DNA of 64,000 nucleotides from an uncultured Thiothrix sp. (GTDB taxonomy: Bacteria; Pseudomonadota; Gammaproteobacteria; Poriferisulfidales; GCA-002705445). This document shows, piece by piece, positions 8,988 to 62,239 of this stretch. A program made the translations under genes and the position numbers. The DNA is taken from positions 3,583-67,582 of the forward strand of contig CACJPG010000001.1 of NCBI GenBank assembly GCA_902595225.1, in the 5' to 3' direction. How positions within the stretch are numbered: the first letter of the stretch is position 1; each line of letters begins with the position of its first letter. Under the pieces are notes generated by a model. That model saw only the letters and a list, made by a program, of their open reading frames with translations. It was not told the origin of the DNA and did no database searches.

Positions 8988-8996
8988 TTTTTTAGT

Positions 8997-14754: not shown

Positions 14755-14769
14755 TTTATAGGAAATATT

Positions 14770-15000: not shown

Positions 15001-15025
15001 TTTTAATTGAGATAGGAGTAAAGTA

Positions 15026-16153: not shown

Positions 16154-16175
16154 TTTTAAAAAAAAGGTGCAAATT

Positions 16176-16517: not shown

Positions 16518-16541
16518 TATCTCTTGTTTTTTCGATAAAAC

Positions 16542-17129: not shown

Positions 17130-17215
17130 AATGTTTAATTGAATTTGTTCTAATATTAATGTAGTTTATGTATCAGAATTATTAAGTCTTTATAAAAATA
17201 CCGTGGAGGTCAAAA

Positions 17216-17830
17216 ATGAGTAACGAGTTTGATAATAATATTATAGACGAAGCTGTTATTGGACAAGCAGCCCCAGACTTTAGTGCGACTGCTGTAGTCA
17301 ATAACGAGTTTAAAGATATAAAATTATCAGATTATAAGGGAAAATTTGTTGTTCTTTTTTTCTACCCTTTAGACTTTACATTTGTTTGTCCAACCGAAAT
17401 CACTGGTTTCAATGATAGATACTCAGATTTTAAAGCTTTAGATACAGAGATACTAGGCGTATCTGTTGACAGTCAATTCTCACATTTAAAATGGATTCAA
17501 ACACCAAGAAAAGAGGGCGGGCTTGGCAAATTAGATTATCCATTAGTATCTGATTTAACAAAGGAAATAAGCTATAAATATGGTGTTCTTTTAGACGACT
17601 CAATATCAACTAGGGGTCTTTTTATTATAGATGCTGAAGGAATAATTCAACATGTAACAATTAACAATTTACCGGTTGGTCGAAACGTTGATGAAACTCT
17701 CAGGCTCATTGCAGCTTTTAAGCATGTTCAAGCTAATCCTAATGAGGTGTGCCCAATGAACTGGACTCCAGGTGACAAAACCATGAATCCTGATCCGGAA
17801 AAATCAAAAGAGTATTTTAAAGACGTTTAA
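17216..17830 (+). CDS. Typical 2-Cys peroxiredoxin (AhpC/Tsa family)
   Basis: The peroxidatic motif is [14 protein letters not shown] and the resolving Cys sits in EVCPMNW. Confidence 0.92.
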
Positions 17831-18024
17831 TATTATACTTTAGTTTAAATCTACAAATAATTGATTTATATAGTTTATTTTAGTACTTAAGAATTTTATT
17901 ATTTAATAAAATTTCTATAAACAATCTAAATATACATATAAAATATTTCTATAAGACAAATAAGTTTATTCTATTATAATTTATTACTCCACGTTTGTAC
18001 TAAAGATTTTAATCACGGAGTAGT

Positions 18025-20976
18025 ATGGCAACCAAGCAAGACAAAATTAGTTTTCACAAAGATAAATTTTCAGTAAATGCTAAAAAACTTCCAGCATTTG
18101 AAAATCACGAAAAACAAACTCATAAACATACCACATGCTATATGTGCGCTTGCCGTTGTGGAATAAAAGTTACGCTTGAGAACAATAAGATTAGATATAT
18201 CCAAGGAACACCAACGCATCCTGTAAATAAGGGTGTTTTATGTGCAAAAGGTAATGCTGGCATAATGAAGCAGATTTCTCCAGCTCGACTAAGGCAGCCA
18301 CTTTTGAGAAAACCTGGCTCGGAGAGAGGCACAAGTGAATTTATACCAATAAGTTGGGATGAAGCTCTTGATATGCTCACCGAAAAACTTGAGAAAATTA
18401 GGAAAACCGATCCAAAAAAACTTGCTTTCTTTACAGGTAGAGATCAAATGCAGGCTTTAACCGGACTATGGGCACAACAGTTTGGAACAGTTAATTGGGC
18501 TGCACACGGTGGATTCTGCTCGGTAAATATGGCAGCTGCCGGTCTTTATACAACAGGCTTTTCATTTTGGGAATTTGGGGATCCTGATTGGGATAAAACC
18601 AAATACTTTATGCTTTGGGGGGTTGCAGAAGATCATGCATCAAATCCAATTAAAATCGGTATTAATAAATTAAAAGAAAGGGGTGGAAAATTTGTTGCTA
18701 TTAACCCAGTTAGGACTGGCTACCAATCAGTTGCTGATGAGTGGGTGCCAATAAAACCTGGAACTGATGCTATGTTAGCTTTATCCCTTATACATGTCTT
18801 ACTTAAAAATGAATTATTTGATTGGGAATTTTTGGTTCGATATACAAACGCACATTATCTTGTTGTTGATACTCCAAGAGAGAAAGGTGATGGATTATTT
18901 TATAGAAACAAAGAAGGTGTTCCTCAATCTTGGGATTTAGAAAAAGAGACAACTGTAAATGCTACAGATGCAAAAATTAAACCAGCATTACTCGGAAGCT
19001 ACAAGACTAAAGATGGAACACCTGTTAAAACAGTTTTTACTTTGATGACTGAAAGATACTTAGACAATGAATACTCACCTGAAATGGCAAGCAAAATATG
19101 TGGTGTTCCTGCAAAACAAATCGAAAGAATAGCAAGAGAACTTGCCCACGTTGCTTTTAAGGAAACTATTGAAGTTGATACTGAGTGGACAGATTGGACA
19201 GGCAGAAAACACGATAAATTTATCGGCCGACCAGTTTCCATGCATGCTATGAGAGGAATCTCTGCTCACTCAAACGGTTTCCAAGCATGCAGATCAATTC
19301 ATTTCTTACAAGTTTTACTTGGATCAGTTGATTGCCCTGGAGGACATTTGGCCAAACCCCCTTATCCTAAACATGTGGCTCCACCAATAAAACCAGGAAA
19401 AAATATTGTACCAGGTGAGCCTTTAGAGAGTTTTCCTTTAGGTTTTCCTCAAGAGCCTGAGGATTTAGTTATTGATGATGATGGAAATCCTTTAAGAATT
19501 GATAAAGCTTATTCATGGGAAGCACCAATCGCAAACCATGGCTTGATGCATATGGCTATTACAAATGCTGTTGCAGGGGATCCATATGAAATTGATATGA
19601 TGATATTTTTCATGGCGAACATGGCATGGAATTCTACAATGAATACTTCAAAGATAAGAGAGTCACTGTGTGCAAAAAATAAAAATGGTGAGTACAAAAT
19701 TCCATTTTTAGTTGTATGCGATGCATTTGACTCAGAAACTGTGGGATATGCAGATTTAGTTATTCCGGATACGACATATTTAGAAAGATACGATACTATC
19801 TCAATACTAGATAGGCCTATTTCTGAACCTCATGCAATCTGTGACTCAATACGCTCACCTGTGCTTGAACCTGATAGAGACGTGAGACCTTGGCAAACCG
19901 TTTTAGTAGAGCTTGCAAGTAGATTAAAGTTTCCTGCATTCACGAAAAAAAATGGCGAAAGAAAATTTAAAGATTATAAAGACTTTATAATTAACTATGA
20001 GAAAGCACCTGGTATTGGTTTCCTTGCTGGATGGAGAGGTGAGAATGGTGAAAATAGTCTTAAAGGCAAACCTAATCAAAATCAGTGGGAAAAATATATT
20101 GAAAATAAATGTTTCTTTCAATATGAAATAGCTGATAGTCATAAGTATTTTCGCGGTGCAAATCAAGGCTATTTAGAATTTGCGAAAAAGGTCGGGTTCA
20201 ATACATCGTCGGAGCCTATAATTATTGAATTGTATTCTGAAAAGTTACAGAAATTTAGATTAGCTGGACTAGGTTTATATGATGGACCACAACCAAAAAG
20301 AGAAAGAGACCAATTTAGGATGTCTAGATTCTTTGATCCTTTGCCTGCTTATTATATTCCGCTAGAACATAGATGTACTTTTTCACAAAAATTTCCTTTC
20401 TATGCAATCACACAAAGACCAATGTTTATGTATCACTCGTGGGACTCTCAAAATGCTTGGCTGAGACAGCTCCAGGCGCATAATTATATGCATATGAATA
20501 AATCAAAAGCGGAAGAACTTGGTATAAAAGATTTGTCATGGGTTTGGGTTGAATCAAACACTGGTAAAATAAAAGTACAGGTTAAGCTTATGGAAGGGGT
20601 AGAAAGTGACACTCTATGGACTTGGAATGCTATTGGTAAGCAAAAAGGTAAGTGGGGTCTTGAGGACGATGCAAATGAATCTACAAAAGGTTTTTTACTC
20701 AATCATCTTATCAATGAGCATCTACCATGCGCTGATACTGGTAATCCTATAACAAACTCTGACCCTATTACTGGTCAAGCAGCTTGGTATGATCTAAAAG
20801 TAAATATTTACCCCGCGGCTGAAGATGAACAGTTTGGCGTTTATCCTAATTTTGAGAGAGCTAACAAAGTTCCTGGTGCTCCAGAGACAAGCAACGTTTT
20901 AAGATATAACACAAAAAAACCTGTAAAACTGTCTAGGTCCCTTAAAGATATTCTTACTAAAGGGGGTTTTGAATGA
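18025..20976 (+). CDS. soeA: Molybdopterin (bis-MGD) oxidoreductase catalytic subunit without a Tat signal; SoeA-like (sulfite dehydrogenase) candidate
   Basis: It is 983 aa. The N-terminal [4Fe-4S] motif is CYMCACRCG...LCAKG. The first 45 residues have no twin-arginine or hydrophobic leader. It is followed by a 4x[4Fe-4S] subunit and a DmsC-like subunit with an ATGA overlap. Size and architecture match SoeABC as I recall it. Confidence 0.6.
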   Translation: MATKQDKISFHKDKFSVNAKKLPAFENHEKQTHKHTTCYMCACRCGIKVTLENNKIRYIQGTPTHPVNKGVLCAKGNAGIMKQISPARLRQPLLRKPGSERGTSEFIPISWDEALDMLTEKLEKIRKTDPKKLAFFTGRDQMQALTGLWAQQFGTVNWAAHGGFCSVNMAAAGLYTTGFSFWEFGDPDWDKTKYFMLWGVAEDHASNPIKIGINKLKERGGKFVAINPVRTGYQSVADEWVPIKPGTDAMLALSLIHVLLKNELFDWEFLVRYTNAHYLVVDTPREKGDGLFYRNKEGVPQSWDLEKETTVNATDAKIKPALLGSYKTKDGTPVKTVFTLMTERYLDNEYSPEMASKICGVPAKQIERIARELAHVAFKETIEVDTEWTDWTGRKHDKFIGRPVSMHAMRGISAHSNGFQACRSIHFLQVLLGSVDCPGGHLAKPPYPKHVAPPIKPGKNIVPGEPLESFPLGFPQEPEDLVIDDDGNPLRIDKAYSWEAPIANHGLMHMAITNAVAGDPYEIDMMIFFMANMAWNSTMNTSKIRESLCAKNKNGEYKIPFLVVCDAFDSETVGYADLVIPDTTYLERYDTISILDRPISEPHAICDSIRSPVLEPDRDVRPWQTVLVELASRLKFPAFTKKNGERKFKDYKDFIINYEKAPGIGFLAGWRGENGENSLKGKPNQNQWEKYIENKCFFQYEIADSHKYFRGANQGYLEFAKKVGFNTSSEPIIIELYSEKLQKFRLAGLGLYDGPQPKRERDQFRMSRFFDPLPAYYIPLEHRCTFSQKFPFYAITQRPMFMYHSWDSQNAWLRQLQAHNYMHMNKSKAEELGIKDLSWVWVESNTGKIKVQVKLMEGVESDTLWTWNAIGKQKGKWGLEDDANESTKGFLLNHLINEHLPCADTGNPITNSDPITGQAAWYDLKVNIYPAAEDEQFGVYPNFERANKVPGAPETSNVLRYNTKKPVKLSRSLKDILTKGGFE

Positions 20977-21668
20977 GATTAGGTTTAGTTGTAGATTTAG
21001 ATAAATGCGTAGGTTGTAATGCCTGTGCTATTGCATGCAAGCAATGGAACACTTCTGGAACTTCTGGCTCACTAACAGACTATAGGCCTTATGGTCCAGA
21101 TCCAAGCGGAGTATTTTTTAATAGAATTCGACATTACGAGACAGGAAATTATCCTGAAAATAAAACAGTGCATTTCCCAATGTCATGTATGCATTGCGAA
21201 GAAGCTGCATGTGTTACTGTGTGCCCAACGGGCGCTTCGTATAAAAGAGAAGAAGATGGAATTGTTTTAGTTGATCCTGAAAAATGTATGGGATGTAACT
21301 ATTGTGCATGGGCATGCCCCTATGGTGCAAGGGAACTCGATCGCGAGGAAGGGATTATGAAAAAGTGCACGTTGTGCGTAGATAGAATATACGATGAAAA
21401 CTTACCTGAATCAGAAAGAAAGCCAGCATGTGTAATGACTTGTCCAACAACCGCAAGATATTTTGGTGATTTTGATGATCCCAACTCAGAAGTGTCGATA
21501 GTTTCAAAAGAAAGAGAGGGACAAGAGTTATTTTCTGAACTAGGCTATAAGCCAGTAAACAAATATTTATCACCACGTAAGAAAGTTGAGATAGAGCAAC
21601 ATGAAATAGTTGAGCCTGATCTTGTTAGAAAAGTTAAAGATTGGGTTAATAAAGTAGTTGAATTGTAA
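20973..21668 (+). CDS. soeB: Four-cluster [4Fe-4S] ferredoxin subunit (DmsB/PsrB family); SoeB-like
   Basis: Cys clusters are CVGCNACAIAC, CMHCEEAACVTVCP, CMGCNYCAWACP and CTLC..CVMTCP. The start overlaps the stop of the catalytic subunit. Confidence 0.7.
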   Translation: MRLGLVVDLDKCVGCNACAIACKQWNTSGTSGSLTDYRPYGPDPSGVFFNRIRHYETGNYPENKTVHFPMSCMHCEEAACVTVCPTGASYKREEDGIVLVDPEKCMGCNYCAWACPYGARELDREEGIMKKCTLCVDRIYDENLPESERKPACVMTCPTTARYFGDFDDPNSEVSIVSKEREGQELFSELGYKPVNKYLSPRKKVEIEQHEIVEPDLVRKVKDWVNKVVEL

Positions 21669-21685
21669 AAATAAGGTAATTATTA

Positions 21686-22639
21686 ATGCACCCAGCATTT
21701 TCAGTCATTTTTTTCACAGTTACGTCAGGAGCAGGATATGGCTTGATGGCACTACTTTGTCTTTTTAATTTTTTATACCTTGGTATGCTTTTTGATAAAA
21801 ATATTTTTTTAATTTTCTCTGGCATAAGTGCAGTTCTTTTTACAATGGGCTTGATATCCTCAACATTTCATCTTGCAAACCCAAAAAATGCTTGGAGAGC
21901 TTTCATGAGATTTAGAACATCATGGCTGGCGAGAGAGGGTTTACTAGCAATTTTATTCTACCCCACACTATTTTTATATTTACTTTTAATACATCTGGAT
22001 TTTTATAAAGATTATTTCCTTTTAATGCAAATATATAGTGTTTTTATCTTCTTTTTTGCAATCTTAATAATATATTGTACTGGTATGATTTATGCGTGTT
22101 TAAAAACTATTCCTCAATGGAACACACCATGGACACCTATAAATTATATAACTATAGGTATTTATTTAGGCGGTTTAATATTTTTCGCATTATTGAGTTT
22201 TAATGATTTTAATATTAATCCATATAAGCCGTTTGTATTAGCCTTGATTTTTGTTGCATTCATAGCAAAGTTTATTTATTACTTAAGTATAAAGGGCCCG
22301 CGACATGAAATCGGTCAAGCAACAAATGCGGCGATTAAACTTAAAAATACAAACGTAAGACTTCTGGATGTAGGCCATACTGGAGGTACTTTTTTAACTG
22401 ATGAATTTGGATACAAAGTAGCAGAGAAAAGATTAAGAAAAATAAAGTGGTTTTCTATTTTTTCAGGATTTTTTATACCTTTTTTCTTAATTTTTTCATA
22501 CAGCTATTTCTTTGAAAATATATTTTTATGCTTATTTGCTGTCTTACTTTCTTTTACTGGCATGATTGCTGAAAGATGGCTATTCTTTGCAGAAGCAAAA
22601 CATGTCGTTAATCTCTATCACGGAGCACAGAAGTGTTAA
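21686..22639 (+). CDS. soeC: DmsC/NrfD-type membrane anchor subunit; SoeC-like
   Basis: It is 317 aa with about 8 hydrophobic helices. The N-terminus MHPAFSVIFFTVTSGAGYG is typical of the DmsC-family anchors I remember. Confidence 0.62.
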   Translation: MHPAFSVIFFTVTSGAGYGLMALLCLFNFLYLGMLFDKNIFLIFSGISAVLFTMGLISSTFHLANPKNAWRAFMRFRTSWLAREGLLAILFYPTLFLYLLLIHLDFYKDYFLLMQIYSVFIFFFAILIIYCTGMIYACLKTIPQWNTPWTPINYITIGIYLGGLIFFALLSFNDFNINPYKPFVLALIFVAFIAKFIYYLSIKGPRHEIGQATNAAIKLKNTNVRLLDVGHTGGTFLTDEFGYKVAEKRLRKIKWFSIFSGFFIPFFLIFSYSYFFENIFLCLFAVLLSFTGMIAERWLFFAEAKHVVNLYHGAQKC

Positions 22640-33636: not shown

Positions 33637-34126
33637 AAGAGCAATGATTTCTGGTCAACTTGAATGGATAGGGGTTAGAGACAAAGAACATGGAATAATC
33701 AGCCTTGATAGCGTTTTGGCAATAAGGGAGCAAGGTCTTGAAGGTGATAAGATTACATTGAAAAAATCAAAAAAAAGACAGATTACATTGATGCAAAAAG
33801 AACATATCAATGTTATCTTGTCGCTAGCAAATGAATGTGACCCAAAAATAATAAGGAAAATAATGTATTTTTTTAAAAGGAATTTATTGGTATCGGGTTT
33901 TAATATTTTAAATTTAAAAGGTAAATATTTTAGAATTGGTGAAGCAAAATTTCTTGGTACTGGAGACTGCAAACCTTGTAAAAAAATTGAAAATCTACTA
34001 GGTCGAGCAATGTATGATGCTATGCAGGGAATGGGCGGAATTACAGCAATTGTTGAAGAAACAGGTATTATTAAAATAAAAGATAATCTCCATTTGGATG
34101 AGAAGAATGAGAACACATTATTCTAG
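33629..34126 (+). CDS. MOSC domain-containing protein
   Basis: KRNLLVSGFNILNLKGKYFRIGEAKFLGTGDCKPCKKIE matches the MOSC beta-barrel and conserved Cys pattern. The start is the GTG at 33629, with an alternative ATG at 33644. Confidence 0.72.
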   Translation: MIERAMISGQLEWIGVRDKEHGIISLDSVLAIREQGLEGDKITLKKSKKRQITLMQKEHINVILSLANECDPKIIRKIMYFFKRNLLVSGFNILNLKGKYFRIGEAKFLGTGDCKPCKKIENLLGRAMYDAMQGMGGITAIVEETGIIKIKDNLHLDEKNENTLF

Positions 34127-35894
34127 TGAAGTTAATGAATCCTTAGTCGATAAAGAAATTATCGTTTGTGGATGGGTCAATAAAGTTAGAGATCATGGTG
34201 GAGTGATATTTATTGACTTGAGAGATATTAAAGGTCTTTTACAAGTAGTAGTCAATCCTGATAACAAACAATTTTTTAAAATAGCCGAGTCAGTTCGTAA
34301 TGAGTATATAATCTCAATAGTTGGTAAGCCTAGATTACGACCTGCTGGATCAGAAAACTTAAAACTAGACTCCGGAAAAGTTGAAGTTGTTGTTAATGAA
34401 ATGACAATATTATCTAAAGCTGAAACACCGCCTTTTCAATTTGATGATAACGTAAACGAAGACATTCGTTTAAAATATCGTGTTCACGATTTGAAGAGTG
34501 AAAAAATGCAAAAAAATATCATTATTAGAAATGATATTACAAATTTAATTAGAAATTATCTTTCAAGTAATAATTTTTTAGAAATCGAAACGCCAATTTT
34601 AACAAAAGCAACTCCTGAAGGTGCAAGAGACTATCTTGTCCCGAGCAGGATTAATAAAGGAATGTTTTATGCGTTACCACAATCTCCTCAGTTATTTAAA
34701 CAAATGCTAATGATGGCGGGATATGAAAAATATTTTCAGATTGCAAAATGTTTTAGGGATGAAGATTTGCGAGCTGATAGACAGCCTGAATTTACCCAGC
34801 TTGATATTGAAATGTCATTCATAAACCAAAAAGATATCATAGACCTTATTGAAAAATTATTTTTCGAGATATTTTACAAAGTTTTAAATATTAAAATCAG
34901 TCTTCCCATTAAGCAAATATCCTATGCTGAATCGATGAATAGATTTGGTTCTGATAGACCTGATTTAAGAATTCCATTTGAAATTAAGACTATCAGCGAG
35001 ATTGTGAAAGATTGTGGTTTCAATGTTTTTTCTGAACCTGCATCAAAGCCTGGTCATAAAGTTAGCGCTTTATGTATTCCGTCAAAAGCAAATCTCTCCA
35101 GAAAAGACATTGATGAATATACAGAATATGCCATTAGTAAAGGATCACAAGGCCTTGCATATATCAAGTGTAACAATACAAAAGATCTTAAAGACGGCCT
35201 CCAATCACCAATATTAAAATTTATTGATATAAAAGTCATAGGTAACATTTTAGAATATGTTGGTGCCAGTGATGGAGATATCATATTTTTTAGCGCAGGA
35301 ACATCAAATTTAGCTAATGAAGTACTTGGTGGTCTTCGAGAAAAAATCGCTCATGAAAAGAATCTAGTTACAGGTGATTGGGAATTTGTTTGGGTAACTG
35401 ATTTCCCAATGTTTGAGCGCGATTTGGAAACAAAAAAACTTAAATGTCTTCACCATCCATTTACAATGCCAATATATAAAAATATTGATGATATTGAAAA
35501 GAATCCAGAAAGTATTTTATCTCATTCCTATGATTTAGTTTTAAATGGCACAGAACTTGGCGGAGGTTCAATAAGAATAAATGATAAAGATATTCAAAAT
35601 GAGATATTTAAAGCCCTAGATTTAGATCAAAACGAAATAAATGAGAAGTTTGGTTTCTTTACAAACGCTTTAAAATTTGGATGCCCGCCTCATGGTGGAA
35701 TAGCTTTTGGCCTAGATAGGATTATAATGCTAATAACAAAATCATTATCAATTAGAGACGTAATTGCTTTCCCAAAAACACAAACGGCATCCTGCTTTTT
35801 AACAAGCGCTCCAAGTATTATTGATAAAAATCAGATTAAAGATCTTGGTATTAAAATTGATAAAAAAAACAATGACAATGAAAAAGATACCTAA
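34107..35894 (+). CDS. aspS: Aspartyl-tRNA synthetase
   Basis: MRTHYSSEV..IIVCGWVNKVRDHGGVIFIDLRD parallels the E. coli AspS N-terminus. Other motifs are FRDEDLRADRQPEFTQLD and GGIAFGLDRI. The track start at 34098 is 3 codons upstream. Confidence 0.95.
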   Translation: MRTHYSSEVNESLVDKEIIVCGWVNKVRDHGGVIFIDLRDIKGLLQVVVNPDNKQFFKIAESVRNEYIISIVGKPRLRPAGSENLKLDSGKVEVVVNEMTILSKAETPPFQFDDNVNEDIRLKYRVHDLKSEKMQKNIIIRNDITNLIRNYLSSNNFLEIETPILTKATPEGARDYLVPSRINKGMFYALPQSPQLFKQMLMMAGYEKYFQIAKCFRDEDLRADRQPEFTQLDIEMSFINQKDIIDLIEKLFFEIFYKVLNIKISLPIKQISYAESMNRFGSDRPDLRIPFEIKTISEIVKDCGFNVFSEPASKPGHKVSALCIPSKANLSRKDIDEYTEYAISKGSQGLAYIKCNNTKDLKDGLQSPILKFIDIKVIGNILEYVGASDGDIIFFSAGTSNLANEVLGGLREKIAHEKNLVTGDWEFVWVTDFPMFERDLETKKLKCLHHPFTMPIYKNIDDIEKNPESILSHSYDLVLNGTELGGGSIRINDKDIQNEIFKALDLDQNEINEKFGFFTNALKFGCPPHGGIAFGLDRIIMLITKSLSIRDVIAFPKTQTASCFLTSAPSIIDKNQIKDLGIKIDKKNNDNEKDT

Positions 35895-36297
35895 ATCAAT
35901 ATTACTTTTAGTCTACACTAAAGAAAAAGATGTTCTTCTTCTTAAGAAAAAAGGTCATGATGATATGTGGCAATCGATAACAGGAAGTTTGTTACAAAAC
36001 GAAAAACCAATTGATGCTGCAATAAGAGAATTACATGAAGAAACTGGCATCAACTCCTCAGATATTATCGATTGTAATAAGCATTATGTTTTTGAAATAT
36101 ATGAAATGTGGCGACATAAATATGAGGAAGGAGTTACACATAATACTGAATATGTTTTTAAGCTAGAATTAGATGATAAAATAGATATTAAGCTGGATGA
36201 TAATGAGCATGAATGTTTTGAATGGCTAACAAGAGTTAAAGCTGCTGAAAAAGTTTTTTCTCATACAAATAGGCAAGCAATTTTTGAATTAATTTAA
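35872..36297 (+). CDS. nudB: Dihydroneopterin triphosphate pyrophosphatase (Nudix)
   Basis: MWQSITGSL..AAIRELHEETGI (Nudix box) and the C-terminal HTNRQAIFEL track E. coli NudB as I recall it. The aspS-nudB-yebC order is conserved. I trimmed the start to the ATG at 35872. Confidence 0.85.
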   Translation: MTMKKIPKSILLLVYTKEKDVLLLKKKGHDDMWQSITGSLLQNEKPIDAAIRELHEETGINSSDIIDCNKHYVFEIYEMWRHKYEEGVTHNTEYVFKLELDDKIDIKLDDNEHECFEWLTRVKAAEKVFSHTNRQAIFELI

Positions 36298-36314: not shown

Positions 36315-37046
36315 ATGGCAGGTCATAGCAAGTGGGCTAATATACAACATAGAAAAAAGAGACAAGATGCAAAACGTGGGAAATTATTCACAAAATTAAT
36401 CAAGGAAATTACTGTTGCTGCTAGAGATGGTGGTGGAGATGCAGACTCAAATCCAAGACTTAGACTAGCTCTTGATAAGGCTTTCGCTGGCAATATGAAT
36501 AAAGACACAATTGAAAAAGCCATTAAAAGAGGTACTGGTAATTTAGAGGGAGTTAATTATGAAGAGTTAACGTATGAAGGTTATAGCTCTTCAGGAGTTG
36601 CAGTAATTGTCGATTGTGTAACAGACAATAAAAATAGGACGGTTGCGGCTGTTAGACATGCTTTTTCTAAATTTTCCGGGAATTTGGGCAGCTCCGGTTC
36701 AGTTTCCTATCTATTTAATCAGATTGGAGTTATTACTTACGAGGACACAGCACAGTCAGATGAAATTATTGATCTAGCAATAGAAAGCGGTGCAATAGAT
36801 GTAGTAAGTGATAAAAATTACGTTGAAATTCATACGGATAAAGGTGATTTCTTGACAATAGCTAAGGTTTTAAAAGATAAAGGATATATTTTTAACAATG
36901 CAGAACTTGAAATGCATGCAGACACAAAAATTGAATTAGATGATGACGGAGCTGAAAACTTCACGAAATTTCAAGACTCTCTCGAAGAGCTAGATGACGT
37001 TCAAAATGTCTATTCAAATGCAAAATACCCAGAGACCTTTAATTAA
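36315..37046 (+). CDS. yebC: YebC/PmpR family transcriptional regulator
   Basis: MAGHSKWANIQHRKKRQDAKRGKLFTKL is the hallmark YebC N-terminus. Confidence 0.95.
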   Translation: MAGHSKWANIQHRKKRQDAKRGKLFTKLIKEITVAARDGGGDADSNPRLRLALDKAFAGNMNKDTIEKAIKRGTGNLEGVNYEELTYEGYSSSGVAVIVDCVTDNKNRTVAAVRHAFSKFSGNLGSSGSVSYLFNQIGVITYEDTAQSDEIIDLAIESGAIDVVSDKNYVEIHTDKGDFLTIAKVLKDKGYIFNNAELEMHADTKIELDDDGAENFTKFQDSLEELDDVQNVYSNAKYPETFN

Positions 37047-37082
37047 AGTAAAATAAATCTATAAATTTTCGGAGATTGCAAA

Positions 37083-37397
37083 ATGTCAAAAATGCAGAGA
37101 GACAAGGGAAAGAGATTTGAAAGAGAAGTTGTAAACTCTTTGAAAGAAGCGGGTTTTTACGATGCAAAAAGAATACCTTTATCTGGTCTACAAGAGGGTT
37201 TTAAAGGTGATATTAAGCTTCGTAGAAATGAATCATCAAAAGAACTTTTAGGCGAATGCAAAAGTAGAGGCGGTGGTTTTAAGCTTATATATGACGCAAA
37301 AGAGCAGGATGGTGCTGATATTCTCTTTATTAAACAGGATAGAAAGCCGGTTTTAGTTGTAATGAGTCTTGATGACTACATGAAGGGCGATTTTTAA
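37083..37397 (+). CDS. Hjc-like PD-(D/E)XK nuclease, putative Holliday junction resolvase (archaeal type)
   Basis: It is 104 aa with a GGAG 8 nt upstream. RDKGKRFEREVVNSLKEAGFYDAKRIPLSG....GDIKL....LGECKSRG aligns by eye to Sulfolobus/Pyrococcus Hjc (KG..ER..V..L...GF...R.P.SG....DI.....E.KSR), which gives an E / D / E-x-K catalytic set. Confidence 0.6.
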   Translation: MSKMQRDKGKRFEREVVNSLKEAGFYDAKRIPLSGLQEGFKGDIKLRRNESSKELLGECKSRGGGFKLIYDAKEQDGADILFIKQDRKPVLVVMSLDDYMKGDF

Positions 37398-37408
37398 AAT
37401 AATTAAAT

Positions 37409-37822
37409 ATGCTCAATAATAAAATTGATATAAGAGTTTATTACGAAGATACAGACGCGGGCGGTATTGTCTATTATTCAAATTATTTAAAGTTTACAGA
37501 GCGTTGTCGTACAGAGTTGTTAAGAGATCTAGGGATTTCTCAGTCTAATCTTAATGAAAAATTTGGAATAAAGTTCATTGTTCATAGCCTCTCAATAAAA
37601 TATATGAATCCAGCATTTCTAGATGATCTTCTAACTATTGAAACTAACATAAATAATTTAAAAAAAGCGTCATTAGATTTTGAGCAAAATGTGTATAAAA
37701 TTAAAGATAACTCTAAAATTGACATAATAAGCTCAAAGTGCAAAATAGTTTCTATAGATAACGATAATAAGATTAGACCTATACCTGATTTTATTATAAA
37801 GGAATTAAATAATAATATATGA
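37409..37822 (+). CDS. ybgC: Tol-Pal-associated acyl-CoA thioesterase YbgC
   Basis: It has the hotdog-fold N-terminus IRVYYEDTDAGGIVYYSNYLKF and lies directly upstream of tolQ. Confidence 0.88.
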   Translation: MLNNKIDIRVYYEDTDAGGIVYYSNYLKFTERCRTELLRDLGISQSNLNEKFGIKFIVHSLSIKYMNPAFLDDLLTIETNINNLKKASLDFEQNVYKIKDNSKIDIISSKCKIVSIDNDNKIRPIPDFIIKELNNNI

Positions 37823-38514
37823 ATGGATTATTACATTTAGCATTAAATGCAAGTTTTTTAGTTCAGCTCGTTATGCTAACTCTCATTGGGTTATCAATAT
37901 GGAGTTGGGTTATTATTTTTGTAAAAAAAAAGGAACTTAAAGATACCTATAAATATACTGTTAAATTTGATAAAAAATTTTGGTCTGGCATGCAGTTGCA
38001 TAAATATTATGATCAAATAAAAGAGAAAAGAGATAAAAGCGCTATAGAACAAATTTTTTACGTTGGCTTTAACCGATATGAAATTTTGCATGGAGATGAA
38101 AAGGAAATTACTCCTGATGTAATTCCTCAAACATCTCTTCGTGCGATGCAAGTTCAAATAAGTAAGGAAAGTGAGGCTCTCGAATCAGATCTTCAAACTT
38201 TAGCTACAATTGCCTCTGTAAGTCCTTATATTGGTTTACTTGGTACTGTTTGGGGAATCATGAATTCTTTTCAATCATTAAGTCAGACCTCGCAAACAAC
38301 AATAGCACTTGTCGCACCAGGTATATCGGAAGCCTTGATTGCTACTGCATTAGGACTAATTGCAGCAATTCCTGCAGTCATAGCTTATAACAAATTTAAT
38401 AAAGATATATCAATGATTGTTGCAAGATATGAAAATTTTTCAGAGGAATTAACTGAAATACTTCAAAGGACACATATACCGACAAAAGATGAGCAAAATG
38501 AGATATCGAGCTAA
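37819..38514 (+). CDS. tolQ: Tol-Pal system protein TolQ
   Basis: It is MotA/TolQ/ExbB family (LATIASVSPYIGLLGTVWGIMNSF), has 3 TM helices and overlaps ybgC by ATGA. Confidence 0.93.
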   Translation: MNGLLHLALNASFLVQLVMLTLIGLSIWSWVIIFVKKKELKDTYKYTVKFDKKFWSGMQLHKYYDQIKEKRDKSAIEQIFYVGFNRYEILHGDEKEITPDVIPQTSLRAMQVQISKESEALESDLQTLATIASVSPYIGLLGTVWGIMNSFQSLSQTSQTTIALVAPGISEALIATALGLIAAIPAVIAYNKFNKDISMIVARYENFSEELTEILQRTHIPTKDEQNEISS

Positions 38515-38926
38515 AAAAAGATTAATGGCAGAAATAAATATTGTTCCATATATCGATGTAATGCTGGTATTACTTCTTGTTTTTATGATTACCACTCCAC
38601 TACTATATGAAGGCCTTGAAGTTGATTTACCAACAACTGAAGCAAACGATGTTGATATTTCTAAATTTAAGGAGCCATTAATTGTTGAAATTAATGAGCA
38701 GGGAATAATTAGAGTAATTCAAAAAGATAATTTCAATGAACAAGTTAATGAAGAAGACTTGGCAGATACAATCATTTCTATCTATAAAAATAAAAAAATT
38801 GATAAAGTATACGTAAAAGGCGATAAAAAAATCTCGTATGAAAAAGTAATAAGACTTATATCTATCTTAAATAAAGGTGGTGTCGAGAATATAGGATTAA
38901 TAACTTTACCAATAAATGAAAAGTAG
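38489..38926 (+). CDS. tolR: Tol-Pal system protein TolR
   Basis: AEINIVPYIDVMLVLLLVFMITTP matches the TolR/ExbD anchor, including the conserved D. Confidence 0.92.
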   Translation: MSKMRYRAKKRLMAEINIVPYIDVMLVLLLVFMITTPLLYEGLEVDLPTTEANDVDISKFKEPLIVEINEQGIIRVIQKDNFNEQVNEEDLADTIISIYKNKKIDKVYVKGDKKISYEKVIRLISILNKGGVENIGLITLPINEK

Positions 38927-39275
38927 AAATAAAAAAAAGTTTTCAATCACAATAAAAGTCTTTATAGCTCATTTTTTGCTCATAATTCTCTTAGATTTAA
39001 ATATTTCAGCATTCGTAAAAAAAGATACTGATGATTTTGAAAATGGAAATGATGTTCAATTTGTAAATCTCAAAAGTATAAGTTTGGAAGAAATACAGAA
39101 AAAAAGAGAGCTTATAGAAAAAAAGAAAAGAGAAATTGAAGCGCAAAAAAGAAAAAGAAAAGAAGAAGCTCAAAAGAAAAAAGAAAGGTTGCTAGCAGAA
39201 AAGCAGAAAAAAAAAGAAGCAGAGAGAAAAAAAGAATTGAAAACGAGAAAAGAAAAGCAGAAGAAGAAAAATTAA
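38916..39275 (+). CDS. tolA: TolA N-terminal fragment (membrane anchor plus K/E-rich domain II), frame 0
   Basis: It has the TM anchor FIAHFLLIILLDL followed by EKKKREIEAQKRKRKEEAQKKKERLLAEKQKKKEAERKK. It ends at a TAA inside the polypurine tract. Confidence 0.7.
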   Translation: MKSRNKKKFSITIKVFIAHFLLIILLDLNISAFVKKDTDDFENGNDVQFVNLKSISLEEIQKKRELIEKKKREIEAQKRKRKEEAQKKKERLLAEKQKKKEAERKKELKTRKEKQKKKN

Positions 39276-39334
39276 GAAAAGAGCAAGCCGAGAAAAAACG
39301 AAAAGAAGAGCTGGATCAAATAAGAAAGGAAGAG

Positions 39335-39721
39335 ATGGAAAAGCTTGCTACGTATGAACTTGAGAAATTAGAAAGAGAGTTGAGAGAAATCGAGAGACTT
39401 GAGGCCTTAATAAAGCAGCAAGCAATAAGAAATGCACAGCTTAGTGATGCAGAAAAAAGATATATTTTATCTATTAAGACCAAGATTGAAAATAACTGGT
39501 TAATTCCACATGACACAAAACATAATGAGATATGTACTGCAATTGTAAATCAATTGCCAAGTGGTAAAGTAACAAGTGTTAAAATTCACGGTTGCAAAGG
39601 GGACTCGCTTTATATTGATTCTCTTATTAATGCTGTATGGAAATCTAGTCCATTACCTATTGCCCCAGATATTGAAGTGTTTCAAGAAGATATTGTTTTA
39701 CAATTTGAGGAGCCAAAATAA
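39335..39721 (+). CDS. tolA: TolA C-terminal fragment (domain III, TonB_C-like), frame -1 relative to the N-terminal fragment
   Basis: RYILSIKTKIENNWLIP...CTAIVNQLPSGKVTSVKIHGCKGDSLYIDSLINAVWKSSPLPIAP matches the TolA domain III pattern. This frame is open upstream to 39140. Confidence 0.7.
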   Translation: MEKLATYELEKLERELREIERLEALIKQQAIRNAQLSDAEKRYILSIKTKIENNWLIPHDTKHNEICTAIVNQLPSGKVTSVKIHGCKGDSLYIDSLINAVWKSSPLPIAPDIEVFQEDIVLQFEEPK

Positions 39722-40993
39722 ATGAGAAAAGTTTTATTATTTTTATTTTTAATATCTTTTATAAGTAGCGCGCATTCAGAATTGAAAATAAAAATTCAAA
39801 AAGCAGAAATAGGTGCATTACCTATTATAATAAGCATAAAAGGGGATTCTGAAATTTTTTCCTCAAAGAATTTTTCAAGTATTATTGAAAATGATCTTTA
39901 TGGAAGTGGCTACTTCAATATCTTAGACTCATCAAAAATTAAAACCTCTATAAAAAATACTAACACTCAATATGCTTTATGGACACTAGCCGGAGCAAAC
40001 TTTTTACTTAAAGCAAGTATTTTCAAAGACGAAGAATACGAATTTATTAAATTCAATCTTCACGATGTTATTAAAAAAAATATCATGTTTTCATATAAAA
40101 TAAGATTGTCAAAAAAAAGCAGTGAAAGGAAAGTTGCTCATACAATAAGTAATTTGATTTTTGAGGAAATTACTGGGATAAAAGGTGTTTTTGATACAAA
40201 AATTGCATATATAAGCACTGAAAATAAAGAAAATAGAAAAATATATAAACTTCATGTGGCAGACATAGATGGTTTTAACTCTGTGGCAATTTATAAATCA
40301 TCAAAACAACTGATGTCTCCAACTTGGTCACCAAAAAATGACAAAATTGCTTATGTATCTTTTGAAAATAATAGACCAGAAATATTTATTCAAACTTTAG
40401 CTACAGGAGAGAGAAAAAAACTTTTGGAAGGTAATAATTCAAATAGTGCGCCAGCATGGTCACCAGACGGTAAATTTATTGCATACACTTCTTCAGTAAA
40501 AGGAAACTTGGAAATTTTCATATATAGTATTCTTGAGCAGAAAGAAAAAAGAATTACAAACAGTATTGGAATTGATACAGAAGCTGAGTGGCATCCAAGT
40601 GGAAAGAAAATTTTTTTCACATCTGATAGGAGTGGAAAACCACATATTTATTTAAAATCTATAAGATCTGGCAAAGCTAAAAGATTAACTTTTACTGGGT
40701 CATACAATGCAGACACTAATGTTTCATCAGATGGAAAATATTTATCATTAGTTCATAATGGTGGTAATGGACATAAAATTGCTATTTATTCGTTAGAGGA
40801 TAATTTTCTTAAAATAATATCTTCGGGCCGACTTGATGAAGCTCCAAGTTTTGCTCCAAATAACAAAATGATACTATTTGCTTCACAAAAATTTAATAAA
40901 GGTATTCTTGTGGCCACGAGTAATGATGGTAGAATAAGAAAAGAAATAGAGTTATCTGGAGAGGATGTTCGAGAACCTATTTGGTCTCATTAA
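39722..40993 (+). CDS. tolB: Tol-Pal system beta-propeller protein TolB
   Basis: It has a signal peptide and repeated propeller motifs (SPTWSPKNDKIAYVS, APAWSPDGKFIAYTS, EAEWHPSGKKIFFTSDRSG). Confidence 0.94.
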   Translation: MRKVLLFLFLISFISSAHSELKIKIQKAEIGALPIIISIKGDSEIFSSKNFSSIIENDLYGSGYFNILDSSKIKTSIKNTNTQYALWTLAGANFLLKASIFKDEEYEFIKFNLHDVIKKNIMFSYKIRLSKKSSERKVAHTISNLIFEEITGIKGVFDTKIAYISTENKENRKIYKLHVADIDGFNSVAIYKSSKQLMSPTWSPKNDKIAYVSFENNRPEIFIQTLATGERKKLLEGNNSNSAPAWSPDGKFIAYTSSVKGNLEIFIYSILEQKEKRITNSIGIDTEAEWHPSGKKIFFTSDRSGKPHIYLKSIRSGKAKRLTFTGSYNADTNVSSDGKYLSLVHNGGNGHKIAIYSLEDNFLKIISSGRLDEAPSFAPNNKMILFASQKFNKGILVATSNDGRIRKEIELSGEDVREPIWSH

Positions 40994-41000
40994 ATTTAAC

Positions 41001-41558
41001 ATGGAGATTATTGTGAAAAAAGATTTTTTAAGATATTTTGCTTTACTATTAATAACTATTTCATTGCCTGCCTGTAATGTTTTAAATCAGAAAGACCCAG
41101 ATGTTATTGTTACAACTGAACCAATGCTAACAAAATCTGAGGAAGGTGAAGTTGATACGGTGGTTTCTGCAGATAGTATAAATCTCGATTATAATGAGGA
41201 AAAAGGATATACCCTTGGAAATAATATTATTTACTTTGATTATGACAAATATTCTGTAGAAAAAAACGAAGATAAAGATATTATAAAAAAATATTCTATA
41301 TACTTAAAAAATAATGAAACTGCATCTATTAGAATCGAGGGTCATGCTGACGAAAGGGGTTCAAGAGCTTACAATTTAGCCCTTGGTGAAAAAAGAGCAG
41401 AAACCATAAAAGAGCTAATGCTTATTAATGGTGTTTCAATTGATTCGGTCGAAGTTGTAAGTTACGGTGAAGAAAATCTTGCATCATCTGGCACTACTGA
41501 GGAATCACACTCTTTAAACAGAAGAGTTGAAATTGTATTTAGCAACACAGGAAATTAA
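41001..41558 (+). CDS. pal: Peptidoglycan-associated lipoprotein Pal
   Basis: It has the lipobox LPAC and an OmpA-like domain (IEGHADERGSRAYNLALGEKRA, NRRVEI). The GTG at 41013, preceded by ggag, is an alternative start. Confidence 0.92.
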   Translation: MEIIVKKDFLRYFALLLITISLPACNVLNQKDPDVIVTTEPMLTKSEEGEVDTVVSADSINLDYNEEKGYTLGNNIIYFDYDKYSVEKNEDKDIIKKYSIYLKNNETASIRIEGHADERGSRAYNLALGEKRAETIKELMLINGVSIDSVEVVSYGEENLASSGTTEESHSLNRRVEIVFSNTGN

Positions 41559-43815: not shown

Positions 43816-43892
<77 letters not shown>

Positions 43893-62089: not shown

Positions 62090-62239
62090 TAGAGCTTTTG
62101 ACGAATTAAAATAATATATGAAATGCTAAATTTAACTTTTTAGGTCTTAATTAGGCTTACTGTTTGGTCTACCATTTGATCTACCATACCTTTTAGTAAT
62201 TAAATAGTAGCTACTAATCAATACTATAGAAGGGTGTAT

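What the first reader, a model, noticed from the sequence alone, without database searches (positions are those of the whole stretch)
37047..37408. Archaeal-type Hjc-like resolvase ORF occupies the slot where ruvC-ruvA-ruvB normally sit
The flanks reproduce the Pseudomonas-type order aspS-(nudB)-yebC-ruvC-ruvA-ruvB-ybgC-tolQRAB-pal-cpoB-queEC. Here only 362 bp separate yebC (ends 37046) from ybgC (starts 37409). That gap holds a single 104-aa ORF with a good GGAG RBS. Its sequence, RDKGKRFEREVVNSLKEAGFYDAKRIPLSG..GDIKL..LGECKSRG, aligns by eye with archaeal Hjc (KG..ER..V..L...GF...R.P.SG..DI..E.KSR). That gives the E / D / E-x-K PD-(D/E)XK catalytic set. This suggests non-orthologous displacement of RuvC by an Hjc-family enzyme. 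It also suggests local loss of the RuvAB branch-migration motor in a streamlined bacterium.
Basis: partly seen in the sequence, partly recalled or inferred. Interest (0 to 1): 0.72.

Follow-up and report, generated by a model that had tools for sequence, protein, structure and literature searches.

The report
Phage-type Hjc-like resolvase replacing ruvCAB
In an abundant, uncultured small-genome marine gammaproteobacterium, the three-gene RuvC-RuvA-RuvB Holliday-junction machinery is missing from its usual chromosomal slot, and a conserved 104-residue nuclease of phage origin with the fold and active site of archaeal Hjc resolvases sits there instead.

Summary
A 104-aa ORF (37083-37397, +) fills the 362-bp gap between yebC and ybgC.

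**Identity.**
- It passes Pfam PF24608 (PDDEXK_15, a phage PD-(D/E)XK endonuclease family). It fails the archaeal Hjc models.
- Its family profile finds only Hjc-type resolvases in the PDB (phage Hjc_15-6 at 1.9e-16; S. solfataricus Hjc at 4e-8).
- An AlphaFold model (pLDDT 84) has Hjc structures as its top Foldseek matches.
- E13, D43, E58 and K60 are conserved.

**Context.** Other gammaproteobacterial loci from the YebC scan, where long enough, nearly all show yebC-ruvC-ruvA-ruvB-ybgC-tolQ. A whole clade shows yebC-hjc-ybgC instead. That clade has about 11 species representatives, genomes of about 1.1 Mb, and YebC identity down to 66%.

**Evolution.** The gene is as conserved as its core neighbours (omega at most about 0.08). 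Its composition matches the host genome. It is monophyletic and nested among phage genes.

**Conclusion.** This is most likely a domesticated phage resolvase that displaced RuvC in place.

**Not tested.** Only about 85 kb of about 1.15 Mb could be read, so I could not test whether ruvAB or ruvC survive elsewhere. A published table scores complete RuvABC loss in Pelagibacter and Ruthia. It also scores RuvC loss with RuvAB kept in Vesicomyosocius.

**Verdict.** This is a new member of a known protein family in an unusual, interesting genomic role.

The parts
37083..37397 (+). Hjc-like PD-(D/E)XK nuclease gene (104 aa; PF24608 PDDEXK_15). A possible alternative start is M4 at 37092.
   Evidence: ORF. 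Pfam PF24608 33.2 bits, above the cut-off of 27. PHROG_244 at 6.7e-16. Profile against the PDB gives only Hjc-type hits. AF2 pLDDT 84. Foldseek top hits are all Hjc.
37119..37121 (+). Codon for E13 (motif I, 'FERE'), a predicted metal-binding catalytic residue.
   Evidence: Invariant in A1 and A2. Aligns with E10 of Hjc_15-6 and with the glutamate of the 'ER' motif in S. solfataricus Hjc.
37209..37211 (+). Codon for D43 (motif II, 'GD').
   Evidence: Invariant in A1 and A2. Aligns with D40 of Hjc_15-6.
37254..37262 (+). Codons for E58-C59-K60 (motif III, ExK).
   Evidence: E58 and K60 are invariant in A1 and at least 90% conserved in the 88-sequence A2. They align with E53-V-K55 of Hjc_15-6.
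37071..37074 (+). GGAG Shine-Dalgarno-like motif, 8 nt upstream of the ATG.
   Evidence: Read directly from the sequence.
36315..37046 (+). yebC (YebC/PmpR family), the upstream neighbour. In relatives it is followed by ruvC.
   Evidence: Pfam. NCBIfam NF001030 332 bits. Synteny.
37409..37822 (+). ybgC (tol-pal-associated acyl-CoA thioesterase), the downstream neighbour. In relatives it is preceded by ruvB.
   Evidence: TIGR02799 141.6 against a cut-off of 141.35. Synteny.
37819..38514 (+). tolQ. Its start overlaps the ybgC stop by 4 nt.
   Evidence: PF01618 at 4e-39. ORF coordinates.
38489..41558 (+). tolR, tolA (split by a 1-nt homopolymer deletion), tolB and pal.
   Evidence: Pfam families on identical proteins in L001-L010 (ExbD, TonB_2, TolB_N/PD40, OmpA). 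tolA indel.
34098..36297 (+). aspS and a nudB-like NUDIX gene, the upstream part of the conserved block.
   Evidence: Pfam. tblastn with E. coli NudB, 38% identity.

Best explanation
The 104-aa ORF encodes a minimal nuclease of the PD-(D/E)XK superfamily with the Hjc fold.

**Origin (inferred from phylogeny and contexts).** An ancestor of this marine gammaproteobacterial clade captured the gene from a phage recombination module. The gene became fixed exactly where ruvC-ruvA-ruvB used to lie, between yebC and ybgC-tolQRAB-pal. It is probably transcribed with those genes.

**Proposed mechanism (inferred from characterised relatives).** The protein works like archaeal Hjc and phage Hjc_15-6. A homodimer binds a four-way DNA junction by its structure. 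With Mg2+ held by E13, D43 and E58, and with K60 assisting, it makes two symmetric nicks near the crossover. This releases two nicked duplexes that ligase can seal.

**Why RuvAB may have become dispensable (inferred).** Hjc-type enzymes do not need a specific cleavage sequence, whereas RuvC does. The cell would therefore no longer need the RuvAB motor to move the junction to a cleavable site. That would let a genome under streamlining pressure swap about 2.1 kb of ruvCAB for 0.3 kb.

**Shown here.**
- The ORF and its position.
- Family membership, fold and conserved active site.
- The ancestral gene order in relatives.
- Clade-wide fixation, purifying selection and host-like composition.
- Phage affinity of the nearest relatives.

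**Inferred, not shown.**
- Dimerisation, junction specificity and the in vivo role.
- Co-transcription with the neighbours.
- Absence of RuvAB from the rest of the genome.
For: **Family and active site.**
- PF24608 scores 33.2 bits, above its cut-off. PHROG_244 scores 6.7e-16.
- The 88-sequence family profile against the PDB finds only Hjc-type resolvases: 7bgs at 1.9e-16, 1hh1 at 4.2e-8, and 1ob8, 2eo0 and 2wcz at 1e-6 to 1e-7. The alignments run through E-R, R-P-SG, D and E-x-K.
- E13 and D43 are invariant. E58 and K60 are at least 90% conserved across the 88 sequences.
- Hjc_15-6 (7bgs) cleaves Holliday junctions in vitro and has the motif E10-D40-E53-x-K55 (PMC8805305).

**Fold.**
- The AF2 model has pLDDT 84 and pTM 0.79, with order alpha-beta-beta-beta-alpha-beta-beta-alpha.
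- The 12 best Foldseek PDB hits are all archaeal Hjc (probability 0.99-1.00; query TM about 0.44-0.60, and 0.5-0.6 for the A. fulgidus entries).
- The best viral matches include phage 'Holliday junction resolvase' proteins with TM up to 0.76.

**Slot.**
- Nearly all other loci from the YebC scan that extend far enough show yebC-ruvC-ruvA-ruvB(-ybgC-tolQ).
- The clade shows yebC-hjc-ybgC-tolQ on genome-size contigs of 1.10-1.15 Mb and in about 11 GTDB species representatives.
- This also holds in lineages with only 66-67% YebC identity and with a different upstream gene.
- hjc stays next to yebC even where a SelO-like gene has been inserted after it.

**Selection and age.**
- Hjc-like identity is 85-91%, against 69-86% for YebC and 59-72% for YbgC.
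- dN is 0.07-0.11 with saturated synonymous sites, so omega is about 0.03-0.08 where it could be estimated.
- GC and GC3 match the neighbouring genes.

**Origin.**
- The clade is monophyletic in 95 of 100 bootstraps. Its sister sequence sits in an ERF/SSB/primase-helicase phage module.
- Roseobacter phages carry a 53%-identical gene next to a nuclease, SSB and a RepA helicase.
- A Blautia member sits in a RecE/RecT prophage module.

**Feasibility.**
- An archaeal Hjc restores repair to E. coli lacking RuvC, and Hjc lacks sequence specificity (PMC10956419).
- RuvC is sequence-specific (PMC6736871 abstract).
- Complete RuvABC absence is scored for Ca. Pelagibacter and Ca. Ruthia magnifica (PMC3403352 Additional file 1).
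- No RuvA/B/C match at E<1 in any held sequence of the clade.
Against: - Only about 85 kb of unique sequence out of about 1.15 Mb was inspected, so ruvAB or ruvC could lie elsewhere.
- The same table scores Ca. Vesicomyosocius okutanii as RuvC-minus but RuvAB-plus. Firmicutes pair RecU with RuvAB. Replacing the resolvase therefore does not by itself imply loss of the motor.
- The protein fails the thresholds of the archaeal Hjc models.
- Foldseek TM to solved Hjc structures is only about 0.6, with rmsd about 5 A.
- At 104 aa it is shorter than every characterised Hjc, which range from 120 to 163 aa.
- Sequence similarity to solved structures covers mainly residues 3-75.
- No biochemical or genetic data exist for any member of this clade.
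- Phage resolvases are often promiscuous on branched DNA (PMC3864405 abstract), so the substrate range is unknown.
Confidence: 0.7

Rival explanations
1. Partial displacement. The Hjc-like gene replaced only RuvC's role. ruvA-ruvB, and conceivably ruvC, moved elsewhere in the chromosome, and the Hjc-like enzyme works with RuvAB. This would resemble RecU plus RuvAB in Firmicutes.
For: - PMC3403352 Additional file 1 scores Ca. Vesicomyosocius okutanii as RuvC-, RuvA+, RuvB+.
- 256 organisms, mostly Firmicutes and Mollicutes, are scored as RuvAB/RecU.
- Only about 7% of the genome was inspected.
Against: - ruvA and ruvB are missing from a slot where nearly all relatives keep them contiguous with ruvC. 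Relocation would need an extra event in a highly syntenic 1.1-Mb genome.
- None was found in the window, its 10-kb extension or any clade locus.
- Complete loss has precedent in Ruthia and Pelagibacter.
Confidence: 0.22
2. A domesticated phage nuclease with a job other than Holliday-junction resolution. Possibilities include cleavage of stalled forks or flaps, a restriction-like or anti-phage nuclease, or a toxin. Its position after yebC would then be coincidental.
For: - PD-(D/E)XK enzymes have many functions (PMC3424549).
- Phage resolvases are often promiscuous on branched DNA (PMC3864405 abstract).
- No member of this exact subfamily has been assayed.
Against: - All significant PDB sequence matches and the top 12 Foldseek PDB matches are junction resolvases.
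- PADLOC gives no significant defence-system match; the best is 0.018 at 10.8 bits.
- No partner methylase, antitoxin or defence gene is adjacent.
- The gene sits in the one locus that held the cell's resolvase, and it stays linked to yebC even when the flanks change.
Confidence: 0.06
3. A neutral leftover of a decayed prophage that happens to lie between yebC and ybgC and has no function for the cell.
For: The family is overwhelmingly phage or prophage borne.
Against: - No other phage gene is nearby, and the spacers are 36 and 11 bp.
- It is fixed in every lineage of a clade whose YebC has diverged to 66%.
- Omega is about 0.03-0.08 with synonymous sites saturated, and composition is host-like.
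- Catalytic residues are intact in all orthologues.
Confidence: 0.02

Closest known systems
Pfam PF24608 (PDDEXK_15) / PHROG_244 short phage resolvase-like nucleases, e.g. Roseobacter phage CRP-831 gp12 and Geobacillus phage 'Holliday junction resolvase' genes
   Same: - Same family by threshold.
- 40-53% identity over almost the full length.
- Same size class of about 95-125 aa.
- Same conserved E...D...ExK motif and D86-R87.
   Different: - Those genes sit in phage or prophage replication and recombination modules, next to SSB, RecT/ERF, exonuclease and helicase genes.
- This one is a fixed single-copy chromosomal gene between yebC and ybgC-tol-pal in a cellular clade.
Hjc_15-6 of Thermus phage Tth15-6 (PDB 7bgs/7bnx)
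   Same: - Best solved relative, at 1.9e-16 with the family profile.
- Same catalytic motif positions.
- The enzyme cleaves Holliday junctions in vitro and has the archaeal Hjc fold (PMC8805305).
   Different: - It is 163 aa with extra C-terminal elements, and only its first ~60 residues align.
- It comes from a thermophilic phage and may form a tetramer.
- Its motif II is 'SD', where this protein has 'GD'.
Archaeal Hjc / Hje (S. solfataricus 1hh1 and 1ob8, A. fulgidus 2wcw, S. tokodaii 2eo0)
   Same: - Same fold (top Foldseek hits).
- Same E / D / ExK active site and the R-P-SG element.
- Also the main cellular resolvase of its host.
- Structure-specific and sequence-independent; complements E. 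coli ruvC (PMC10956419).
   Different: - This protein fails PF01870 and the NCBIfam Hjc equivalog.
- It is 104 aa against 120-143 aa.
- Its nearest relatives are phage genes, not archaeal genes.
RecU of Firmicutes and Mollicutes
   Same: The textbook case of a PD-(D/E)XK resolvase standing in for RuvC in bacteria (PMC3403352; PMC3424549).
   Different: - A different family (PF03838), which gave no hit here.
- Larger, with a stalk.
- Encoded away from ruvAB.
- RuvAB is retained.
RusA of the E. coli cryptic prophage DLP12
   Same: A phage-derived resolvase in a bacterial chromosome that can substitute for RuvABC. RecG supplies branch migration (background in PMC3403352).
   Different: - Unrelated fold, and sequence-selective.
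- In E. coli it is a normally silent accessory prophage gene (my own knowledge).
- It is not a fixed replacement in the ruv locus.

Membership tests
Pfam PF24608 PDDEXK_15 (phage putative PD-(D/E)XK endonuclease) | Whole-protein score at or above the curated gathering cut-off (27 bits) | tested here: met
   33.2 bits, E=6e-8, residues 5-98. Precomputed PF24608 hits on most orthologues.
PD-(D/E)XK nuclease superfamily | Conserved catalytic E ... D ... (D/E)xK residues on an alpha-beta-beta-beta-alpha-beta core | tested here: met
   E13, D43, E58 and K60 are invariant among 8 sequences of 42-89% identity. They are invariant or at least 90% conserved among 88 sequences. The predicted secondary-structure order fits the core.
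Archaeal Hjc (Pfam PF01870) | Score at or above the gathering cut-off (21.1 bits) | tested here: not met
   15.1 bits, E=0.023, residues 11-64 only. Some orthologues (P0008, L144) carry weak precomputed PF01870 hits.
Archaeal Hjc (NCBIfam NF040854, equivalog) | Score at or above the curated cut-off (70 bits) | tested here: not met
   13.7 bits.
Hjc-type resolvase fold | Three-dimensional similarity to solved Hjc structures | tested here: met
   AF2 model pLDDT 84. The 12 best Foldseek PDB hits are all Hjc, with best E=2e-4 and probability 0.99-1.00. TM is 0.50-0.60 on the A. fulgidus entries and 0.44-0.47 on the Sulfolobus-type entries, so similarity is moderate.
Hjc-type resolvase (function) | Homodimer that makes paired, Mg2+-dependent nicks in four-way junctions | not testable with these tools
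   No multimer prediction or biochemistry is available. Activity has been shown only for relatives (PMC8805305; PMC10956419).
RuvC (PF02075), RecU (PF03838), RusA (PF05866) | Profile match to any of these resolvase families | tested here: not met
   The Pfam scan at E<=1 returned only PF24608 and PF01870. PHROG_244 carries the label 'RusA-like', but that is a label only.
Known anti-phage defence systems (PADLOC-DB) | Significant match to a defence-system component | tested here: not met
   The best hit is at E=0.018, 10.8 bits, to a type IIG REase-MTase model.
Non-orthologous displacement of RuvABC | The ancestral locus held ruvC-ruvA-ruvB, and the new gene occupies it | tested here: met
   Nearly all other gammaproteobacterial loci from the YebC scan that extend far enough show yebC-ruvC-ruvA-ruvB(-ybgC-tolQ). 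The clade loci show yebC-hjc-ybgC-tolQ.
Non-orthologous displacement of RuvABC | No ruvA, ruvB, ruvC (or recU, rusA) anywhere else in the genome | not testable with these tools
   Only the window plus about 20 kb of flanks could be read. No match at E<1 there. Collection scans and look-ups were exhausted.

The most novel reading that the evidence does not exclude
This free-living and very abundant marine gammaproteobacterial clade has no RuvA, RuvB, RuvC, RecU or RusA at all. It would resolve every Holliday junction with a 104-residue domesticated phage Hjc-like enzyme. That amounts to archaeal-style, motor-independent resolution in a proteobacterium. Replacing 2.1 kb by 0.3 kb would make it a clear example of genome streamlining by functional substitution. 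It could also help explain how other RuvABC-less streamlined bacteria, such as Pelagibacter and Ruthia, cope.
Probability: 0.5. Interest if true: 0.7.

Novelty: new member of a known kind. Interest (0 to 1): 0.52.

Why it matters
**What is new here.**
- RuvABC is treated as the standard Holliday-junction machinery of Gram-negative bacteria.
- Here the whole operon was swapped in place for a single small phage-derived resolvase.
- The replacement has since been kept under strong selection in a globally abundant ocean bacterium.
- It is a clean natural case of non-orthologous displacement, with the ancestral and derived states both visible in the same gene order.

**What it would give, if RuvAB is truly absent.**
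- A natural test of whether a sequence-independent resolvase makes the branch-migration motor dispensable.
- A candidate minimal resolvase for biochemical study and for use as an enzyme.
- A lead for asking how other streamlined bacteria scored as lacking RuvABC resolve junctions.

**Annotation.** NCBI annotates the protein as hypothetical (MAN20806.1). IMG's automatic name, 'Holliday junction resolvase', is supported by this analysis.

Tried and rejected
1. **First structure prediction.** The 8-sequence alignment gave pLDDT 58.7, so I discarded that model. The 88-sequence alignment was used instead.
2. **Finding the nearest RuvCAB-bearing sister lineage and a close RuvB query.** The YebC scan of metagenome contigs returned only one clade member plus distant gammaproteobacteria at 52-60% identity. 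The YebC protein search filled its 120 rows with the clade itself. No close RuvB was obtained. A RuvB search would not have ranked a divergent target among the 120 listed rows, so I did not attempt it.
3. **Extending the view.** One look-up beyond the window's start failed because no exact product was on record. An earlier look-up also failed. The look-up beyond the window's end showed purL and H4MPT genes but no ruv genes.
4. **Literature.** Searches for an Hjc-like replacement of ruvCAB in marine gammaproteobacteria, SUP05 or Thioglobus found nothing. The clam-symbiont repair paper does not mention ruv genes. The SAR11 'putative Holliday junction resolvase' in PMC3686209 is only a gene-cluster label.
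5. **Ideas considered and rejected.**
   - A defence-system nuclease.
   - A RuvC, RecU or RusA family member.
   - Leftover ruv pseudogene fragments; the spacers are only 36 and 11 bp.
   - A SelO-like gene in L060 and L018 being ruvAB.
6. **Naming the organism.** This stayed uncertain. NCBI titles say 'Gammaproteobacteria bacterium' or 'Thiothrix sp.'. The gene content suggests a SUP05/Arctic96BD-19-like sulfur oxidiser. No marker gene was available to settle it.
Full report
**1. The observation**

- yebC ends at 37046 and ybgC starts at 37409, so the gap is 362 bp.
- The gap holds one ORF, 37083-37397 on the + strand, of 104 aa, with the quoted sequence. GGAG lies at 37071-37074, 8 nt before the ATG.
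- The flanking genes were tested rather than assumed. YebC passes the NCBIfam equivalog NF001030. YbgC passes TIGR02799, the Tol-Pal-associated thioesterase.
- AspS, a NUDIX protein, TolQ, TolR, TolB, Pal, a YfiO/TPR protein, a radical-SAM QueE-like protein and QueC follow from Pfam.
- ybgC and tolQ overlap by 4 nt. The spacers around the ORF are 36 and 11 bp.
- No terminator-like site lies between the genes, and promoter-like matches are no more frequent than in shuffled sequence. Co-transcription is therefore likely but not shown.

**2. What the protein is**

*Single-sequence searches.*
- Pfam gives PF24608 (PDDEXK_15, 'phage putative PDDEXK endonuclease') at 33.2 bits, above the cut-off of 27.
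- The archaeal Hjc model PF01870 scores only 15.1 bits, below its cut-off of 21.1.
- The NCBIfam Hjc equivalog scores 13.7 bits against a cut-off of 70.
- PHROG_244, a phage resolvase family, matches at 6.7e-16.
- Against PDB sequences, the best hit is 7bgs at 1e-4.

*Profile searches.*
- The 8-sequence profile scores 7bgs at 1.4e-8.
- The 88-sequence profile scores 7bgs at 1.9e-16, S. solfataricus Hjc 1hh1 at 4.2e-8, Hje 1ob8 at 3.6e-7, S. tokodaii ST1444 at 5.6e-7 and A. fulgidus Hjc at 4e-6.
- No other kind of protein appears below E=0.1.
- The alignments run through the E-R, R-P-SG, D and E-x-K-S-R elements.

*What is known about the best relative.* 7bgs is Hjc_15-6 of Thermus phage Tth15-6. 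It has the archaeal Hjc fold, the motif E10-D40-E53-x-K55, and cleaves Holliday junctions in vitro (PMC8805305).

*Conserved residues in this protein.*
- The equivalent residues are E13, D43, E58 and K60.
- All four are invariant among eight homologues of 42-89% identity.
- E13 and D43 are invariant, and E58 and K60 at least 90% conserved, among 88 homologues of about 36-89% identity.

*Structure.*
- A first AlphaFold run on the shallow alignment was poor (pLDDT 58.7).
- The 88-sequence alignment gave pLDDT 84 and pTM 0.79, with order alpha-beta-beta-beta-alpha-beta-beta-alpha.
- The 12 best Foldseek PDB matches are all archaeal Hjc structures. The best E is 2e-4, probability is 0.99-1.00, and query TM is 0.50-0.60 on the A. 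fulgidus entries.
- The best viral matches include phage 'Holliday junction resolvase' proteins with TM up to 0.76.
- PADLOC gives no meaningful defence-system match.

*Conclusion.* This is a minimal Hjc-fold PD-(D/E)XK nuclease. By thresholds it belongs to the phage family PF24608, not to archaeal Hjc proper.

**3. Where the family lives**

- The family is large: 605 hits in the word-indexed search, and 4,547 clusters at 50% identity at E<=0.001 in the exhaustive search. In the latter, the whole gammaproteobacterial clade collapses to one representative.
- Outside that clade, members sit on contigs of about 64 kb or less.
- Cultured phages carry the family. Roseobacter phages CRP-823 and CRP-831 have a 53%-identical gene next to a wHTH regulator, a PD-(D/E)XK nuclease, SSB and a RepA helicase. 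Geobacillus phages have a gene of about 40% identity annotated 'Holliday junction resolvase'.
- A member in Blautia producta lies between RecE-like and RecT-like genes and a replication initiator, that is, inside a prophage.
- The nearest metagenomic relatives are P0075, P0103 and P0070 at 52-56% identity by tblastn. They lie among ERF, SSB and primase-helicase genes or among small unannotated ORFs, and none is next to yebC.
- In a neighbour-joining tree, the six clade sequences are monophyletic in 95 of 100 bootstraps and nest among these sequences.
- One capture from a phage is the simplest reading.

**4. The slot**

- The identical protein lies between yebC and ybgC on ENA contigs of 1.12-1.15 Mb, which are probably whole genomes, and on TARA scaffolds.
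- A 68%-identical orthologue does the same in a sister lineage with a 1.10-Mb contig.
- Eleven GTDB species representatives carry orthologues of 66-91% identity. All are uncultured marine Gammaproteobacteria, some labelled 'Thiothrix sp.'.
- I scanned metagenome contigs with the window's YebC. Apart from one clade member, the other 79 loci have YebC of 52-60% identity.
- Wherever these loci extend far enough, nearly all show yebC-ruvC-ruvA-ruvB, usually followed by ybgC-tolQ.
- Two further lineages also have the Hjc-like gene directly after yebC. Their YebC identities are 66% and 67%, and one has a different upstream gene.
- In one species a SelO-like gene has been inserted on the other strand after hjc, but hjc still follows yebC.
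- YebC and YbgC are the strongest genomic associates of ruvABC in bacteria generally (PMC3403352).

**5. Is it maintained?**

- Across 13 orthologous loci, the Hjc-like protein is 85-91% identical to the window's. The figures are 69-86% for YebC, 59-72% for YbgC and 72-89% for TolQ.
- In the deepest sister lineage the figures are 66-68% for Hjc-like, 68% for YebC and 47-48% for TolQ.
- dN is 0.07-0.11 while synonymous sites are saturated (pS 0.64-0.91). Where omega could be estimated it is about 0.03-0.08, like tolQ and yebC.
- GC is 0.36 and GC3 0.28, matching the neighbouring genes.
- This is an old, fixed gene with host-like composition under strong purifying selection. It is not a recent or decaying insertion.

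**6. Are ruvA, ruvB and ruvC gone from the genome?**

- Locally, yes. tblastn with the E. coli proteins finds nothing in the window or in any clade locus. That covers 552 kb of redundant sequence, about 85 kb unique, down to E<1.
- Genome-wide, I could not test it. The homology search lists only its best 120 rows. Context look-ups accept only window proteins or proteins returned by earlier searches.
- Published data cut both ways. In Additional file 1 of PMC3403352 the columns are YebC, RuvC, RecU, RuvA, RuvB.
  - Ca. Pelagibacter ubique and Ca. Ruthia magnifica are scored YebC-plus and minus for all four others.
  - Ca. Vesicomyosocius okutanii is scored RuvC-minus but RuvA-plus and RuvB-plus.
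- I put the chance of genome-wide RuvAB absence at roughly 60-70%. The reasons are that all three genes vanished from a slot where relatives keep them contiguous, and that relocation would need an extra event in a highly syntenic 1.1-Mb genome.

**7. Mechanism**

- By homology, the protein should act as a homodimeric, Mg2+-dependent, structure-specific endonuclease. It would nick two strands of like polarity near the crossover of a four-way junction.
- Hjc shows no sequence specificity, and an archaeal Hjc restores repair to E. coli lacking RuvC (PMC10956419).
- RuvC cuts only at cognate sequences (PMC6736871 abstract).
- A sequence-independent resolvase removes the need to move the junction to a cleavable site. 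That gives a rationale for losing RuvAB along with RuvC.
- These steps are inferred, not shown.

**8. The organism**

- The window has 31% GC.
- It carries dsrE, tusA, an SQR-like gene and a molybdopterin/FeS/DmsC trio.
- H4MPT-linked C1 genes lie just beyond its end.
- This content, together with the NCBI labels, fits a streamlined SUP05/Arctic96BD-19-like sulfur oxidiser. No marker gene confirms that.

**9. Novelty**

- The protein family is known.
- IMG's automatic annotation already names this protein 'Holliday junction resolvase', while NCBI calls it hypothetical.
- Sporadic Hjc genes in bacteria have been noted (PMC3424549).
- Non-orthologous displacement of RuvC has a well-known precedent in RecU.
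- I found no report of ruvCAB being replaced in place by a phage Hjc-like gene in a free-living proteobacterium.
- I file it as a new member of a known kind, with an unusually clear evolutionary context.

Noticed in passing
window 38916-39721 (tolA): tolA is split into two ORFs (38916-39275 and 39335-39721). The cause is a 1-nt deletion in a poly-A run relative to sister contigs, which carry a single 268-aa gene. Several long-read 'pilon' contigs of the same organism show other split genes. This is most likely a homopolymer sequencing or assembly error, not a pseudogene.
   Followed up: yes
window 58698-61130 (-) and 62696-63568 (-): An 809-aa protein with a C-terminal PDDEXK_1 domain gives only a weak partial match to AddB of alphaproteobacteria (57.8 bits against a cut-off of 486). 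A RmuC-family protein lies nearby. Both are recombination-associated genes close to the finding. On one sister contig the first appears as a shorter 610-aa product.
   Followed up: partly
window 14365-22639: A sulfur-metabolism cluster: dsrE, tusA, an SQR-like flavoprotein (15026-16153), a 983-aa molybdopterin oxidoreductase, an FeS subunit and a DmsC/NrfD membrane subunit (SoeABC- or Psr-like). It suggests the organism is a streamlined sulfur oxidiser.
   Followed up: partly
L150 1-6014 (beyond the 3' end of the window, past purL): Tetrahydromethanopterin-linked C1 genes (Fae, MCH, Mpt_N, ATP-grasp, CitG-like, GHMP kinase) lie next to purL. This is unexpected in a 1.1-Mb marine gammaproteobacterium and may help place the lineage.
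   Followed up: no
L060 1370-3103 (-) and L018 8390-9691 (-): In one species-level lineage a SelO/YdiU-like gene has been inserted on the opposite strand between the Hjc-like gene and ybgC. The name rests on my reading of the sequence, not on a profile search. It breaks the presumed yebC-hjc-ybgC-tol transcription unit there.
   Followed up: partly
P0014, P0017, P0027 (short metagenome contigs): Some predicted proteins fuse fragments of the Hjc-like protein to other domains: a B12-binding/radical-SAM N-terminus, YbgC, and a PF04476 domain. These are probably frameshifts or chimeric assemblies rather than real fusions.
   Followed up: no
window 62239-62591 (-); tRNAs at 335-408, 8912-9067, 10236-10319, 43816-43889: A full-length tmRNA (207 bits) and five tRNA genes. 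No rRNA operon lies in the window, so no direct phylogenetic marker was available.
   Followed up: no
PMC3403352 Additional file 1: The table scores Ca. Pelagibacter ubique HTCC1062 and HTCC7211 and Ca. Ruthia magnifica as lacking RuvA, RuvB, RuvC and RecU, while Ca. Vesicomyosocius okutanii lacks only RuvC. What resolves junctions in these organisms seems not to be established. The genome scan with the N-terminal motif of this family did not pick them up.
   Followed up: partly
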